DNA of 64,000 nt from Minisyncoccota bacterium (lineage in GTDB: Bacteria; Patescibacteriota; Minisyncoccia; Phycocordibacterales; JABAAK01): contig OY764332.1 in the NCBI GenBank assembly GCA_963668425.1, positions 359,504 through 423,503 on the forward strand. Reading direction: 5' to 3'. How positions within the stretch are numbered: the first letter of the stretch is position 1; every line of letters starts with the position of its first letter. Below, in pieces: positions 28,304 through 58,818 of the stretch. The notes beneath the pieces are model-generated. The model searched no databases. It had not been told where the DNA came from and worked only from the letters and a program-made list of their open reading frames with translations. The translations under genes and the position numbers were made by a program.

Positions 28304-30487
28304 CTATAGATTGGTGTTGCCGAAGGTGTCAGATCCTGCATTGGTGTTGTCATGGTCTCTTTCTATTAGAATTTCGCGAGGTTTTGAGCCGACTTGTGGA
28401 CCCACTATACCATTTTCTTCCAACATATCAATCAGGCGGGCGGCACGGGAGTAGCCAATCTTTAATTTTCGTTGCAAGAGGGAGGTGGATGCTTTTTGTG
28501 CTTCTATGACGATGCGTAGTGCTTCAGGGTAGTGCTCGTCTTCATCATCTCCTCCTCCAAAATCAGTACTTCCTGCGACTTCTTGATTTTTGGTGATGTC
28601 AATGATACCTTCGGCGACACCGTTGTGTTTTAATAGATATGCGACCACCTTTTTTACTTCTATGTCAGTTACGAATGCTGATTGTGCCCGAACTGGTTTT
28701 TTGTTTTCAGAAGAGGAGAATAGCAAATCACCCGCGCCGATGAGATTTTCTGCCCCTGTTGTGTCAAGGATGGTGCGGGAGTCAATGTTTGAAGTGACTT
28801 GTAGTGCGATTCGTACTGGGATGTTCGCCTTTACGACACCGGTGATGATGTTGACAGACGGTCGTTGTGTTGAGATGATGAGATGAATGCCGACAGCGCG
28901 ACTTTTTTGTGCTATTCGAACAATGTTTGCCTCTATTTCTCGCGGGAAACTTTGCATCAGGTCTGCTAACTCGTCTATGACTACCACTAGGCAGGGTAGA
29001 TATCCTTCCTCATCGTCAATTGCTTCGTTGTATGCGCTTATGTTTCGTGCGCGGTGTGCTTCTAATAACTCGTAACGGCGTTCCATCTCTGAAACAATCC
29101 ATACTAATGCTTGTAATGCCTTCTTCGGGTCGGTGATAGGGTCGGTGTAGAGGTGTGGCACTCCTTTGTACAGTGTTAATTCCACCCGTTTCGGATCAAT
29201 GAAAATAAAGCGAAGGTCTCGTGGACCGTAATTGAACAGGAGTGAGAGGATGAAGTTGTGGATGAGTACACTTTTGCCTGATCCAGTAGTGCCGGCGACT
29301 AAAATGTGTGGCATTTTTTCTAAACTTTTCGCGAATATTGAGCCGTTGATGGTTTTTCCTATTACCAGTCCTAGGGAGTTTTTGATGCGGGTAAATTCTT
29401 TTGACTTTAGGAGGGTTTGCAGTCCTACTGTCGCCCGAGTGGAGTTTGGCACCTCAATGCCGATGAGCGATTGTCCCGGTATTGGTGCTTCAATGCGGAT
29501 TGGGTGCGCGGCGAGCGCTAACTCAAGATTTTGTTGTAAGCTGGTGATGCGAGAGACGCGTACCCCTTCTGCCGGGCGCACTGAATAGCGAGTGAATGAT
29601 GGTCCGACAGTCACTTCTTCAACCTCTACGTGTATTTTGAAGTTTTGTAGTGTTCGTTGTATGGCGAGTGACTGTGCCTTGGTGTTGTTTGCCGCTTGCC
29701 CCTTCCCTTTTTCGGCATTCAGTAGTGATGAAGGAGGGGCGATGTACGGGGGCGTCTCATTATCTGTGTGGTATTCTTCTTCATCCTCGTCGTCATCATT
29801 GTCCTCTTGCTCTTCATCATCATCATATTCATCCTCGTCATATTCATCCTCTTCATCATCCTCTTCATCTTCATCTTCCTCCTCTTCCTCTTCTTCATCC
29901 TCATCATCATATTCCTCATCTTCATCTTCATCCTCATCATATTCATCTTCCATGAAATCAAGATCGTTCAGCCATTTCCAGATGGTGAATGGTGAGAAAA
30001 TCTTAAGGATGTAGAGTGCACTGAGTAGTGCCAATGGCATCAACACGTATGAGAAAACCCCTAACACATCCTGCAGTGTACTGAAGATTGTCGCGCCGAG
30101 CACTCCGCCGGCAATTTCATCGGATCCTGCAGCGAAGAGTACTGATGCACTTACGATTGCCAGTATGCCACCGAGGATGAGTCGGATGTATGATAGTGGT
30201 TCTTTGACAAAGAGAAGATAGACCCCTCCTGTGGTTAGTAAGGTGATGAGGACAATGAAGCTCCAGCCGAGCAGTGCAGGAGAGCCGTCGGGTTTCATAA
30301 AGAGGTATTCGCGTATCCATGTGCCGAATGAGCCGGCGGTATCAAAGATGATAAGTGTGCAGAATAGTGCCGCGAGGAGGCATACGATGCTCACAGAGAC
30401 CGCGCGAAACCGTGATGATGTGTTTGTATACCAGTCGGCAGATCGCCGCAGCAGAGAATCTTTTCCTTTTTTTTTCTTTCGTGTCAT
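28304..30487 (-). CDS. ftsK: DNA translocase FtsK/SpoIIIE with an extremely acidic (~65-aa poly-D/E) linker.
   Basis: N-terminal TM helices. Walker A 'GTTGSGKSVLIHNFI'. Gamma winged-helix 'LLQRKLKIGYSRAARLIDMLEENGIVG'. Linker 'DEYDEDEDEDEEYDDEDEEEEEEEDEDEEDDEEDEY...'. Confidence 0.85.
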   Translation of the reverse strand: MTRKKKKGKDSLLRRSADWYTNTSSRFRAVSVSIVCLLAALFCTLIIFDTAGSFGTWIREYLFMKPDGSPALLGWSFIVLITLLTTGGVYLLFVKEPLSYIRLILGGILAIVSASVLFAAGSDEIAGGVLGATIFSTLQDVLGVFSYVLMPLALLSALYILKIFSPFTIWKWLNDLDFMEDEYDEDEDEDEEYDDEDEEEEEEEDEDEEDDEEDEYDEDEYDDDEEQEDNDDDEDEEEYHTDNETPPYIAPPSSLLNAEKGKGQAANNTKAQSLAIQRTLQNFKIHVEVEEVTVGPSFTRYSVRPAEGVRVSRITSLQQNLELALAAHPIRIEAPIPGQSLIGIEVPNSTRATVGLQTLLKSKEFTRIKNSLGLVIGKTINGSIFAKSLEKMPHILVAGTTGSGKSVLIHNFILSLLFNYGPRDLRFIFIDPKRVELTLYKGVPHLYTDPITDPKKALQALVWIVSEMERRYELLEAHRARNISAYNEAIDDEEGYLPCLVVVIDELADLMQSFPREIEANIVRIAQKSRAVGIHLIISTQRPSVNIITGVVKANIPVRIALQVTSNIDSRTILDTTGAENLIGAGDLLFSSSENKKPVRAQSAFVTDIEVKKVVAYLLKHNGVAEGIIDITKNQEVAGSTDFGGGDDEDEHYPEALRIVIEAQKASTSLLQRKLKIGYSRAARLIDMLEENGIVGPQVGSKPREILIERDHDNTNAGSDTFGNTNL

Positions 30488-57672: not shown

Positions 57673-57834
57673 CTGATGTGGGTGAGTTGCCTTATTGGCT
57701 TGATTATGGTGTAGCTCTGTTGATTATTCAATATATATTGTCAATGGTTGTTTTTATACTGTTTTTAGGTGATACTACTGGTGTATTGACGGTGTTTGCT
57801 AGTTATGTAACGTGTAAAGAAAAGGAGGTGCAAA

Positions 57835-58335
57835 ATGCGTAGTTTTGCTGTTTATGTATGCTCTTTCCTCTTTTTGGCCTTTTTGGCTGGGTGCAGTGGT
57901 ATGAATAACCCTCTTCAATCCACGCCTACCACCACCTCTTCCCGTATTTCTTCTGGAGGAGAAGGTGCTGCTTCTGATGAGGCGGAGGATGAGGGTACTG
58001 TTATTTTCAATGATCATCTTGTTATATCTTCTGGGGGATTGGTGAATCCTATCCCATCACTACTAGAACAGGGTATGGAGAGGGGTGGCACTAATGATGA
58101 CGGTGATATATGGCCTGATGAGGTGCGAAATCCTGTTGATGAGGCACCGGAGCCCGATGCGATTGAAGATAGCAGTGGCGGTATTAATCCTGATGATGTG
58201 GTTGAGGATTCTGATGATGATGATGGTTTAATTCCTGAAGTCATTAATGATGCCTCTTCGGATGATGATCAACCAGGTGAGCCCGATGAAGTTATTGAAG
58301 ATGACGGGGAAATTTGGGGTGAAGTTGTTGATTGA
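57835..58335 (+). CDS. Acidic lipoprotein (lipobox LAGC), D/E-rich, no recognised domain.
   Basis: 'MRSFAVYVCSFLFLAFLAGCSG' is a signal peptidase II-type signal. The rest is Asp/Glu/Pro-rich. Confidence 0.5.
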   Translation: MRSFAVYVCSFLFLAFLAGCSGMNNPLQSTPTTTSSRISSGGEGAASDEAEDEGTVIFNDHLVISSGGLVNPIPSLLEQGMERGGTNDDGDIWPDEVRNPVDEAPEPDAIEDSSGGINPDDVVEDSDDDDGLIPEVINDASSDDDQPGEPDEVIEDDGEIWGEVVD

Positions 58336-58347
58336 GGGGGATATTAT

Positions 58348-58515
58348 ATGTATCAGAAAAGAAGTCGGTCAAAAAGAAGGGTATTTTTTCGCTCTACTTC
58401 TGTGACGCACTTGAAGCGATGCAGAGAGCATTGTGATGATGATACTTGCGCTTGTTACGTCCGAGATCGGAAAGGTAACCGTCATAGATCACGGCAACGG
58501 AAGCGTTTACGGTAG
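58348..58515 (+). CDS. Unlisted small ORF: a 55-aa extremely basic protein with four Cys (C-x3-C-x4-C-x-C): MYQKRSRSKRRVFFRSTSVTHLKRCREHCDDDTCACYVRDRKGNRHRSRQRKRLR.
   Basis: Strong SD GAGGGGG 7 nt upstream of the ATG. Followed by a terminator hairpin (AATGCCGGTTGTG-TTTTA-CACAGCCGGCATT + T-rich) at ~58528-58567. Below the 60-aa cutoff of the ORF track. Confidence 0.45.
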   Translation: MYQKRSRSKRRVFFRSTSVTHLKRCREHCDDDTCACYVRDRKGNRHRSRQRKRLR

Positions 58516-58557
58516 ATAATCACATATAATGCCGGTTGTGTTTTACACAGCCGGCAT

Positions 58558-58818
58558 TTATTGATTTAGAACACGGATGGTTTGTGAGTTGTTGAGTATG
58601 TTTTCACTTGGTTTTTTGTTACTACTGTATGTAACCATTGAGCTGATGCTAATGAATATGAGGGCGATCATCAGAAGTCCGATGGTTGTCGTCTGTAGTG
58701 GTGTTAATCGTTTTCTGCTTGCTACAATTTTGCTTGATGCATCTTTTTTAACTATGTTTATTTTTTCGTTCATACACTTCTGTACCTTTTTGTATATATG
58801 TAGTATATAGTCATACAT
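58558..58818 (-). CDS. Hypothetical small membrane protein (single TM 'IGLLMIALIFISISSMV').
   Basis: ORF only; no family recognised. Confidence 0.3.
   Translation of the reverse strand: MYDYILHIYKKVQKCMNEKINIVKKDASSKIVASRKRLTPLQTTTIGLLMIALIFISISSMVTYSSNKKPSENILNNSQTIRVLNQ

What the first reader, a model, noticed from the sequence alone, without database searches (positions are those of the whole stretch)
58348..58515. Unannotated 55-aa hyper-basic four-cysteine protein with a strong ribosome-binding site and its own terminator
'MYQKRSRSKRRVFFRSTSVTHLKRCREHCDDDTCACYVRDRKGNRHRSRQRKRLR' is about 40% Arg/Lys, has a C-x3-C-x4-C-x-C cluster, a near-consensus SD (GAGGGGG) and a downstream terminator hairpin. 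That is stronger expression evidence than many longer ORFs here. Its composition recalls ribosomal or nucleic-acid-binding zinc-ribbon proteins. Its ends loosely recall L34 (MKRTYQ...GRKRL) but the cysteine core does not. It follows an acidic secreted lipoprotein.
Basis: seen in the sequence. Interest (0 to 1): 0.5.

Follow-up and report, generated by a model that had tools for sequence, protein, structure and literature searches.

The report
Orphan hyper-basic small protein, often lost
The 55-codon reading frame is real and belongs to a tiny family of very positively charged mini-proteins found only in one group of sponge-associated ultra-small bacteria, but it is neither a zinc-binding nor a ribosomal L34-like protein, and the closest relatives of this genome have deleted or broken it.

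Summary
The genome is a sponge-associated Paceibacterota/Kaiserbacteria (CPR) bacterium. The same slot, between an acidic lipoprotein gene and a conserved terminator, holds a 48-55 aa ORF in six other relatives. All have net charge +13 to +16, pI 11.4-12 and an SD-like motif. In the L001/L021/L023/L007 clade the frame is under purifying selection (dN/dS 0.14-0.34; other frames 0.6-1.5). ORF retention across five lineages is far beyond chance (joint P about 5e-10). So this is a genuine coding gene family.

It is an orphan: nothing in Pfam, NCBIfam, PDB or PHROGs, and only two members among 1.84 billion representative proteins. The four cysteines occur only in the window's copy and in its dead sister copy. 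AlphaFold gives no confident fold. The zinc-ribbon and L34 readings therefore fail.

The gene is dispensable. In the window's own subclade three genomes lack it entirely. The nearest relative (97% identical over the first 200 residues of UvrD) has lost the SD and ATG and carries an in-frame stop.

Most likely it is a disordered polycation that binds a polyanion (RNA or ribosome), an accessory and fast-evolving protein. That function is inferred, not shown. Modest interest.

The parts
57822..57830 (+). Strong Shine-Dalgarno (AAGGAGGTG) of the lipoprotein gene, the first cistron of the two-gene operon
   Evidence: Sequence read; ATG at 57835.
57835..58335 (+). Poly-acidic lipoprotein gene (166 aa). 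Signal peptide with lipobox LAGC. The mature part has 42 D+E against 3 K+R, net charge -39. This is the upstream cistron.
   Evidence: There are 19 homologues, all from the same clade and none with a Pfam domain. dN/dS is 0.28-0.39.
58334..58340 (+). SD-like G-rich run GAGGGGG. It overlaps the lipoprotein stop codon and ends 7 nt before the ATG.
   Evidence: Equivalent purine-rich motifs (GAGGAGG, GGAAGGAGGGTGA, GAAGGAG, GGAAAGGGG) sit upstream of all six orthologues. The run is deleted in the dead copy of L017.
58348..58515 (+). The small ORF: 55 aa, net charge +15, pI 11.4. It is the window's copy of a clade-restricted hyper-basic small-protein family.
   Evidence: Positional orthologues in L001, L003, L007, L021, L022 and L023. 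Coding signature.
58420..58455 (+). Cysteine cluster C-x3-C-x4-C-x-C (codons 25-36). It is specific to the window lineage.
   Evidence: Absent from all six intact orthologues. The codons are retained only in the pseudogenised sister copy L017.
58459..58482 (+). The only sequence motif shared with the other members: V-R-D-R-K-G-N-R (family pattern [VT]RD..G[ND]R). In the low-confidence model it forms a beta-hairpin turn.
   Evidence: Arg39 is encoded by CGA, CGC, CGT, AGA or CGG in different genomes (sequences). Strands E36-39 and E45-48 appear. Taken alone, the motif is not statistically significant.
58528..58568 (.). Conserved intrinsic-terminator hairpin (14 bp stem, 3 nt loop) with a T-rich tail. 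It lies between the operon and the convergent gene.
   Evidence: In 11 loci, 7 of 12 pairs show compensatory changes. It is present whether or not the small ORF is there.
58558..58773 (-). Convergent gene for a 71-aa single-pass membrane protein (the longest ORF reaches 58818). Its stop codon abuts the hairpin.
   Evidence: dN/dS is 0.04-0.14 in this frame, against 0.13-0.47 with stops in the best opposite-strand frame.

Best explanation
The ORF is the window's copy of a genuine but taxonomically restricted (orphan) protein-coding gene.

It is the second cistron of a two-gene operon: poly-acidic lipoprotein, a 12-20 nt gap with an SD-like run, the small ORF, then a conserved hairpin terminator. 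The operon occurs in a clade of sponge-associated Paceibacterota/Kaiserbacteria.

Selection keeps the reading frame, the length (48-55 aa), the extreme positive charge (+13 to +16) and one short motif ([VT]RD..G[ND]R). Almost nothing else is kept. This is the behaviour of an intrinsically disordered polycation whose activity depends on charge rather than on a fold.

The most likely mode of action (inferred, not shown) is electrostatic binding to a cytoplasmic polyanion, namely rRNA, the ribosome or other nucleic acid. This would resemble the small hyper-basic accessory ribosomal proteins bS22, bL37 and Thx.

The gene is accessory. It has been deleted or inactivated at least three times in the window's own subclade. 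The window copy, with its unique Cys-rich insert, may therefore be under relaxed selection.

Shown: the ORF and its signals, positional orthology, purifying selection in one clade, orphan status, non-conservation of the Cys cluster, and recurrent loss.
Inferred: operon co-transcription, disorder, the polyanion target, and whether the window copy is still functional.
For: Same slot, same orientation, same charge in seven genomes.

L001 versus L007: 49 codons with no indel and 41 substitutions distributed 10/11/20 by codon position. dN/dS is 0.175, against 1.48 and 0.63 in the other two frames. There are 16 amino-acid changes against 24.1 +/- 2.3 expected (P = 4.5e-4). All pairs in that clade give dN/dS 0.14-0.34.

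The ORF is longer than in dinucleotide shuffles in each of five lineages (P = 0.003-0.057; product 4.5e-10).

In L001 and L023 a second frame is also open, but it is interrupted in L021 and L007, so only the basic frame is kept.

The intergenic gap is 210-230 nt where the ORF exists and 34-66 nt where it does not.

The terminator is conserved with covariation.

There is no homologue outside the clade in 5.8 billion or 1.84 billion proteins.

Low-confidence AlphaFold model.

Precedents: prokaryotic orphan genes are on average shorter, more disordered and of higher pI (PMC11293555). bS22 (33 aa, pI 12.75) and bL37 (24 aa, pI 12.02) are non-essential hyper-basic ribosomal proteins, and bL37 is unannotated in M. 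tuberculosis (PMC10081302).
Against: Sequence homology between the window copy and the other members cannot be demonstrated once composition is controlled. An HMM built from the six others scores it E = 2.4 with 16 bits of bias. Shuffle-controlled Smith-Waterman gives at best P = 0.07. Membership therefore rests on position, charge and one 8-residue motif.

Window versus nearest relative L017: the ORF region differs at 9 of 150 nt (6.0%). That equals the synonymous divergence of the flanking genes (0.058-0.092). The changes are 1 synonymous, 7 non-synonymous and 1 nonsense, so no constraint is visible in this pair.

L017 is clearly dead, and L018, L019 and L020 have no ORF at all.

There are no expression data.

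Nothing ties the protein to RNA or ribosomes except its composition.
Confidence: 0.55

Rival explanations
1. The window copy is a still-open relic. The family is real, but in the subclade containing the window the gene has become dispensable. This copy is drifting toward loss, and its Cys-rich, partly acidic middle section is neutral decay rather than innovation.
For: There are three deletions (L018, L019, L020) and one triple-hit pseudogene (L017) in the window's subclade.

Window-L017 divergence in the ORF equals the neutral rate, with only 1 of 9 changes synonymous.

The window protein is the most aberrant member, with a 9-residue insert, the sequence DDD, four Cys and an extended tail.

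At a dS of about 0.57 to L018, a neutral 55-codon frame surviving intact would be unlikely but not impossible.
Against: The start codon, SD-like run, full length, charge of +15 and the VRDRKGNR motif are all intact. The motif is kept through synonymous codon differences relative to genomes at saturated dS. This indicates selection along most of the window's lineage.

ORF length against shuffles gives P = 0.008.

All nine window-L017 differences could lie on the dead L017 branch.
Confidence: 0.28
2. Charge-matched partner of the co-transcribed lipoprotein. The polycationic peptide (+15) acts together with the polyanionic lipoprotein (-39). It could be a cytoplasmic holdase for the precursor. 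Alternatively it could be an exported cationic peptide whose binding or immunity protein is the surface-anchored acidic lipoprotein, as LanI-type lipoproteins are for cationic lantibiotics. That last comparison is from my own knowledge.
For: The small ORF is seen only directly downstream of this lipoprotein gene, 12-20 nt away, and never elsewhere.

Both genes are absent together from the outgroup L002.

Both evolve fast.

The charges are opposite and extreme.
Against: The lipoprotein is kept intact without the small ORF in L017-L020, so it does not need it.

The small protein has no signal peptide or leader.

There is no transporter or modification gene nearby. The neighbours are RecG, UvrD, KsgA and ribonucleotide reductase.
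Confidence: 0.1
3. One reading: a zinc-ribbon-like four-cysteine nucleic-acid-binding or ribosomal (L34/L36/L32-like) protein.
For: Four Cys and two His lie within 12 residues of the window copy, and the composition is basic.
Against: The cysteines are absent from all six intact orthologues.

The spacing C-x3-C-x4-C-x-C does not form two CxxC knuckles.

There is no hit to any Pfam, NCBIfam or PDB sequence at E <= 10.

pLDDT is 57.

The gene is lost in close relatives, and its context is not rpmH-rnpA.
Confidence: 0.03
4. Not a gene at all: either a chance ORF in a 3' untranslated region or a non-coding RNA element.
For: Nothing positive beyond two absences. There are no expression data, and no gene with exactly this product is on record in the assembly collection, although neither neighbouring protein of this genome is on record there either.
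Against: Frame-specific purifying selection is seen.

The ORF is retained in five lineages.

A conserved SD-like run is present.

There is no Rfam family in the region.

The whole segment is cleanly absent where the ORF is absent.
Confidence: 0.04

Closest known systems
bS22 and bL37 (also Thx): lineage-restricted hyper-basic accessory ribosomal proteins
   Same: Very small (24-33 aa, against 48-55 here). pI about 12. Restricted to some lineages, non-essential and often unannotated (PMC10081302). Probably act through Lys/Arg contacts with a polyanion.
   Different: No sequence relationship: there is no PF08213 match and no PDB match at E <= 10. The ORF is longer. It is encoded behind a lipoprotein gene. 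It evolves much faster and is lost among close relatives. Ribosome association is untested.
Ribosomal protein bL34 (RpmH)
   Different: No HMM match. The context is not rpmH-rnpA. It is neither universal nor conserved: 25-39% identity between genomes whose UvrD is 77-80% identical.
Zinc-ribbon small ribosomal proteins (bL36, and the Cys-containing forms of bL32/bL33/bL31)
   Same: Small and basic, with four Cys in the window copy.
   Different: The Cys are not conserved in orthologues, the spacing is different, and there is no HMM or fold support.
Prokaryotic species- or clade-specific orphan genes (PMC11293555)
   Same: Short, predicted to be disordered and of high pI. Confined to a narrow clade, of native genomic context and fast-evolving.
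   Different: Here the coding status is supported by dN/dS and by multi-lineage ORF retention, which most orphan calls lack. The pairing with an oppositely charged lipoprotein is particular to this case.
Arginine-rich RNA-binding peptides (for example BIV Tat beta-hairpin, lambda N) - from my own knowledge
   Same: A short Arg-rich segment around a Gly/Asn turn, which the low-confidence model draws as a beta-hairpin.
   Different: This is only an analogy of shape and charge. No homology exists and no RNA target is known.

Membership tests
Ribosomal protein bL34 (PF00468 / NCBIfam rpmH) | Significant match to the family profile | tested here: not met
   There is no Pfam or NCBIfam hit at E <= 10 for the window protein or any of the seven members. 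No PDB chain is matched at E <= 10, although the PDB holds many L34 chains.
Ribosomal protein bL34 (PF00468 / NCBIfam rpmH) | Near-universal presence and slow evolution | tested here: not met
   Identity to orthologues is 25-39% where UvrD is 77-80% identical. The gene is absent from L018, L019, L020 and L002 and broken in L017.
Ribosomal protein bL34 (PF00468 / NCBIfam rpmH) | Usual rpmH-rnpA gene neighbourhood | tested here: not met
   The neighbours are RecG, an acidic lipoprotein, a small membrane protein, UvrD and KsgA.
Zinc ribbon / four-Cys zinc-binding small protein | Metal-ligand cysteines conserved among orthologues | tested here: not met
   Five of the six intact orthologues have no Cys. 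L022 has one, at an unrelated position.
Zinc ribbon / four-Cys zinc-binding small protein | Two CxxC/CxxH knuckles on beta-hairpins; a confident fold | tested here: not met
   The spacing is C-x3-C-x4-C-x-C. AlphaFold gives mean pLDDT 57 and pTM 0.25, and places the Cys region partly in a helix.
Zinc ribbon / four-Cys zinc-binding small protein | Binds zinc | not testable with these tools
   This needs metal analysis of the synthetic or recombinant peptide.
bS22 (PF08213) / bL37 / Thx-type accessory ribosomal proteins | Sequence match to the family | tested here: not met
   No Pfam or PDB match.
bS22 (PF08213) / bL37 / Thx-type accessory ribosomal proteins | Very small, pI about 12 | tested here: met
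   48-55 aa, pI 11.4-12.0.
bS22 (PF08213) / bL37 / Thx-type accessory ribosomal proteins | Found in purified ribosomes | not testable with these tools
   The organism is uncultured. This needs ribosome purification or cryo-EM from enrichments, or heterologous binding assays.
Clade-restricted (orphan) protein-coding gene | No detectable homologue outside a narrow clade | tested here: met
   Word-indexed search of 5.8 billion proteins found none for the window protein. The profile found only P0001 and P0002. Exhaustive hmmsearch of 1.84 billion representatives found the same two. The genome-collection tblastn scan found none.
Clade-restricted (orphan) protein-coding gene | Evidence that the frame is coding (purifying selection, ORF retention) | tested here: met
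   dN/dS is 0.14-0.34 in one clade, against 0.6-1.5 in the other frames. For the window copy itself the test is inconclusive.
Clade-restricted (orphan) protein-coding gene | Transcribed and translated | not testable with these tools
   No expression data are available here.
The small-ORF family itself (window + L001, L003, L007, L021, L022, L023) | Statistically significant sequence similarity of the window protein to the other members | tested here: inconclusive
   The HMM of the six others gives E = 2.4 after a 16-bit bias correction. Composition-controlled Smith-Waterman gives P = 0.07 to L001 and more than 0.2 to the rest. Positive control: L022 versus L007 gives P = 0.0002.
The small-ORF family itself (window + L001, L003, L007, L021, L022, L023) | Same genomic slot between orthologous flanks | tested here: met
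   In all seven genomes the ORF lies between the orthologous lipoprotein stop codon and the orthologous terminator and membrane-protein gene.
Intrinsic (rho-independent) terminator | GC-rich hairpin plus T tract, supported by covariation | tested here: met
   In 11 loci, 7 of 12 pairs show compensatory changes.

The most novel reading that the evidence does not exclude
The lipoprotein and the small ORF form a charge-matched two-gene module invented within sponge-associated Paceibacterota. It pairs a surface-anchored polyanion (-39) with a +15 polycationic peptide. The peptide would leave the cell by a non-classical route and act on neighbouring cells or on the host bacterium of this episymbiont, with the acidic lipoprotein serving as its binding or immunity partner. 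Recurrent loss of the peptide while the lipoprotein is kept would then be the familiar 'orphan immunity' pattern.
Probability: 0.06. Interest if true: 0.6.

Novelty: new member of a known kind. Interest (0 to 1): 0.33.

Why it matters
If the reading is right, this is a well-documented case of a lineage-restricted small protein in the candidate phyla radiation. It is demonstrably coding, is selected for charge rather than sequence, and is gained and lost over short evolutionary distances.

Such genes are routinely missed or dismissed in MAG annotation. In several of the public gene calls fetched here the neighbouring small membrane gene is called on the wrong strand.

The case gives a concrete target for asking what polycationic mini-proteins do in ultra-small cells with reduced ribosomes. 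It does not open a long-standing question, and its function remains conjectural.

Tried and rejected
1. Direct homology searches with the 55-aa protein found nothing: the word-indexed protein search, the exact-sequence contig look-up and the genome-collection tblastn scan.

2. Exact look-ups of the neighbouring UvrD and lipoprotein also found nothing. This genome is not in the assembly collection.

3. The metagenome scan with the membrane-protein alignment returned only two contigs, both identical to L003.

4. The profile search of 1.84 billion representatives returned only the two sequences already in the profile.

5. Pfam, NCBIfam, PDB-sequence and PHROG scans of all seven members found nothing below E = 0.07. 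Rfam has no family here.

6. The AlphaFold confidence was too low to justify a fold search.

7. Origin by frame-shifted duplication of the acidic lipoprotein gene, or a paralogue elsewhere in the window: blastn and tblastn against the window gave only chance-level matches.

8. Stop-codon readthrough fusion with the lipoprotein is rejected. The ORF shares the lipoprotein's frame in the window, L001, L021 and L023, but not in L003, L007 and L022.

9. The alternative overlapping 51-aa frame in L001 (containing CxxC) is rejected. It is interrupted in L021 and L007 and has dN/dS 0.63 to 1.48.

10. I checked that the + strand ORF 58577..58810 is only the antisense shadow of the membrane-protein gene.

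11. Literature searches for small basic proteins in Patescibacteria found nothing specific.

Full report
**Observation.** The ORF is exactly as described: 58348..58515 on the + strand, ATG start, 55 aa. K+R is 20/55 (36%), net charge +15 and pI 11.4. The cysteines are spaced C-x3-C-x4-C-x-C.

- The run GAGGGGG (58334-58340) overlaps the TGA of the upstream gene and ends 7 nt before the ATG. Only GAGG matches the anti-SD complement exactly. SD use in this window is weak in general: 7 of 31 long ORFs have a match of 5 nt or more.
- A 14-bp hairpin with a T-rich tail follows at 58528-58558. It folds at -26.9 kcal/mol, z = -6.2.
- An ORF this long arises in 0.8% of dinucleotide shuffles of the gap.
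- It is the most K+R-rich of the 335 ORFs of 40-90 aa in the window.

**Context and organism.** The gene order is ribonucleotide reductase (+), RecG (-), a 166-aa lipoprotein (+, 57835..58335), the small ORF (+), the hairpin, a convergent small membrane-protein gene (-, 58558..58773/58818), UvrD (+) and KsgA (+).

- The lipoprotein has lipobox LAGC, and its mature part has net charge -39.
- The best genome matches to UvrD are MAGs of Candidatus Paceibacterota/Kaiserbacteria.
- Several related contigs come from sponge metagenomes.

**Relatives.** Ten further distinct versions of the locus were obtained through UvrD, through the small-protein profile and through 19 homologues of the lipoprotein.

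- Six carry an ORF in the same slot and orientation: L003 (48 aa; annotated at NCBI as hypothetical protein OXB96_01290), L022 (51 aa), L007 (49 aa), and L001, L021 and L023 (49 aa, TTG start).
- All have net charge +13 to +16, pI 11.5-12.0 and a purine-rich SD-like run upstream.
- Where the ORF is present, the distance from the lipoprotein stop to the end of the convergent gene is 210-230 nt. In L018, L019 and L020 it is 66, 34 and 57 nt, and the lipoprotein stop is followed directly by the hairpin.
- The more distant L002 lacks both the lipoprotein gene and the small ORF.

**Is it coding?** In the L001/L021/L023/L007 clade the answer is clear.

- L001 and L007 differ at 41 of 147 positions, with no indel. 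The differences fall 10/11/20 by codon position.
- dN/dS is 0.175 in the ORF frame, against 1.48 and 0.63 in the other two frames.
- Random placement of the same substitutions gives 24.1 +/- 2.3 amino-acid changes, against 16 observed (P = 4.5e-4). It keeps the frame open only 21% of the time.
- All six pairs in the clade give dN/dS 0.14-0.34.
- A second open frame in L001 and L023 is interrupted in L021 and L007.
- Across five lineages at saturated synonymous divergence, each gap holds an ORF longer than expected from shuffles (P = 0.003-0.057; product 4.5e-10).

The family is therefore a real protein-coding gene, not a chance ORF or an RNA element. No Rfam family lies here.

**What is conserved.** Very little beyond frame, length and charge is conserved.

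- Identity of the window protein to the others is 25-39%, while the first 200 residues of UvrD are 77-79% identical and the membrane protein 72-77%.
- The only shared motif is [VT]RD..G[ND]R (VRDRKGNR in the window, 58459-58482). Its invariant Arg is encoded by five different codons in different genomes, which points to conservation at the protein level.
- The four cysteines are not conserved. Five intact orthologues have none, and L022 has one elsewhere.

**Caveat on homology.** Once composition is controlled, the window protein's similarity to the others is not significant.

- An HMM built from the six others scores it E = 2.4 among the window's 1154 open segments, after a 16-bit bias correction.
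- Shuffle-controlled Smith-Waterman gives P = 0.07 against L001 and worse against the rest. L022 against L007 gives P = 0.0002.

The window ORF is therefore assigned to the family by position, orientation, charge and one short motif.

**Decay in the window's own subclade.** A neighbour-joining tree of the first 200 residues of UvrD gives three groups: (L022, L003), (L020, (L018, (L017, window))) and (L007, (L001, L021, L023)). L002 is the outgroup. L019 is misplaced by a frameshift in its low-coverage assembly.

- The ORF occurs in all three groups, so it is ancestral. L020 and L018 (with different deletion end-points) and L017 must have lost it independently.
- L017 is 97% identical to the window in that UvrD segment. 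It has three lesions confined to this ORF: a 15-nt deletion that removes the G-run and the ATG, a CGA-to-TGA change at codon 24, and a rearranged 3' end. Its RecG, lipoprotein, membrane-protein and UvrD genes are intact.
- Between the window and L017 the ORF region differs at 9 of 150 nt (6.0%). That equals the synonymous divergence of the flanking genes (0.058-0.092). The changes are 1 synonymous, 7 non-synonymous and 1 nonsense.
- Without an outgroup these changes cannot be assigned to a branch. Whether the window copy is still under selection is therefore open.

**Operon and terminator.** The gap between the lipoprotein stop and the ORF start is 12-20 nt. The hairpin is conserved in all 11 loci, and 7 of 12 pairs show compensatory changes. 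It is present with or without the ORF. It is therefore the terminator of the lipoprotein transcript (and probably of the convergent gene), not a private terminator of the small ORF. The convergent gene is real on the minus strand: dN/dS is 0.04-0.14, against 0.13-0.47 with stops in the best opposite frame.

**Databases.**
- No Pfam, NCBIfam or PDB-sequence match at E <= 10 for any of the seven members, and no PHROG match below E = 0.07.
- No relative of the window protein in the word-indexed search of 5.8 billion proteins.
- Only P0001 and P0002 found with the profile there and in an exhaustive search of 1.84 billion representatives.
- AlphaFold gives mean pLDDT 57 and pTM 0.25, with a tentative helix and a beta-hairpin around the conserved motif.
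- No paralogue in the window, and no DNA similarity to the lipoprotein gene.

**Mechanism.** Selection on charge, length and one turn motif, with free divergence elsewhere and no confident fold, fits a disordered polycation acting by electrostatics. With no signal peptide it should be cytoplasmic, where the abundant polyanions are rRNA, other RNA and DNA.

- The nearest functional analogues are the hyper-basic accessory ribosomal proteins bS22 and bL37 (33 and 24 aa, pI 12.75 and 12.02). Both are non-essential, and bL37 is unannotated in M. tuberculosis (PMC10081302). There is no sequence relationship to them, and ribosome association is untested. I put about 0.3 on this specific target.
- The oppositely charged lipoprotein partner is the main alternative. 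It is weakened because the lipoprotein is kept without the ORF in four genomes, and because no export signal or transporter is present.
- The properties also match what is reported for prokaryotic orphan genes in general: short, disordered, high pI (PMC11293555).

**Verdict.** The claim of a 'real, expressed-looking small gene' is supported for the family. The zinc-ribbon and L34-like interpretations are not supported. The window copy is either a functional but dispensable accessory gene or a late-stage relic. This is a new member of a known kind (a clade-restricted small polycationic protein), of modest interest.

Noticed in passing
window 58343-58372, minus strand: A near-consensus sigma-70-type promoter-like site (TTGACC, 18 nt, TATAAT; 11 of 12 matches) lies inside the 5' end of the small ORF. 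It points antisense into the lipoprotein gene. Its -10 element is the ATTATA just upstream of the ORF's ATG, and it is removed by the 15-nt deletion in L017. The L001 and L003 sequences show no equivalent.
   Followed up: partly
window 58558-58818 (-); L017 3709-3924, L018 3583-3798, L019 3563-3895, L021 and L023 equivalents: The conserved 71-aa single-pass membrane-protein gene (C-terminus NNSQTIRVLNQ) is also present in the outgroup L002. In the public gene calls for L017, L018, L019, L021 and L023 it is replaced by a call on the opposite strand of 67-96 aa. dN/dS favours the minus-strand frame. It has no significant Pfam match.
   Followed up: partly
window 57835-58335 (+) and homologues P0003-P0021: The poly-acidic lipoprotein is itself an uncharacterised, clade-restricted family. 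There are 19 members and none has a Pfam domain. The mature part is 27-34% D+E. It contains repeated EPD/PDxV-like units, and an IWGEVVD C-terminus is shared by part of the family. dN/dS is 0.28-0.39.
   Followed up: partly
L001 5483-5638; L023 equivalent: A second ORF of 51 aa (containing FLCADCS) overlaps the small gene in another frame and starts at the lipoprotein stop codon. It is open in L001 and L023 but interrupted in L021 and L007, so it is not conserved.
   Followed up: yes
L021 700-2900 and L023 700-2950: In these two genomes no RecG gene is called upstream of the lipoprotein gene. In its place are four + strand genes of 85, 88, 122 and 230-243 aa, none with a Pfam hit on record.
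   Followed up: no
L019 3797-5748: UvrD is split into two calls (150 + 508 aa) on a contig labelled 2x coverage. This is probably an assembly frameshift, and it distorts L019's position in the UvrD tree.
   Followed up: no
window 29719-29961 (-): An 80-aa Met/Lys/Arg-rich low-complexity ORF (net charge +28) lies in an alternative frame of the 727-aa ORF 28304..30487 (-). This indicates a repetitive purine-rich stretch inside that gene.
   Followed up: no
whole window: Shine-Dalgarno use is weak in this genome segment. Only 7 of 31 long ORFs have a match of 5 nt or more to the anti-SD complement near a possible start, against 8.4% of all ATGs by chance. The lipoprotein gene is one of the few with a strong site.
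   Followed up: partly
L018 3517-3550: The short remnant between the lipoprotein stop and the hairpin (GGAGTTCAGAAAAGCAATTGTG...) contains TCAGAAAAG and ATTGTG. Both also occur in the window ORF. This suggests an internal deletion of a window-like ancestor, but it was not tested against chance.
   Followed up: no
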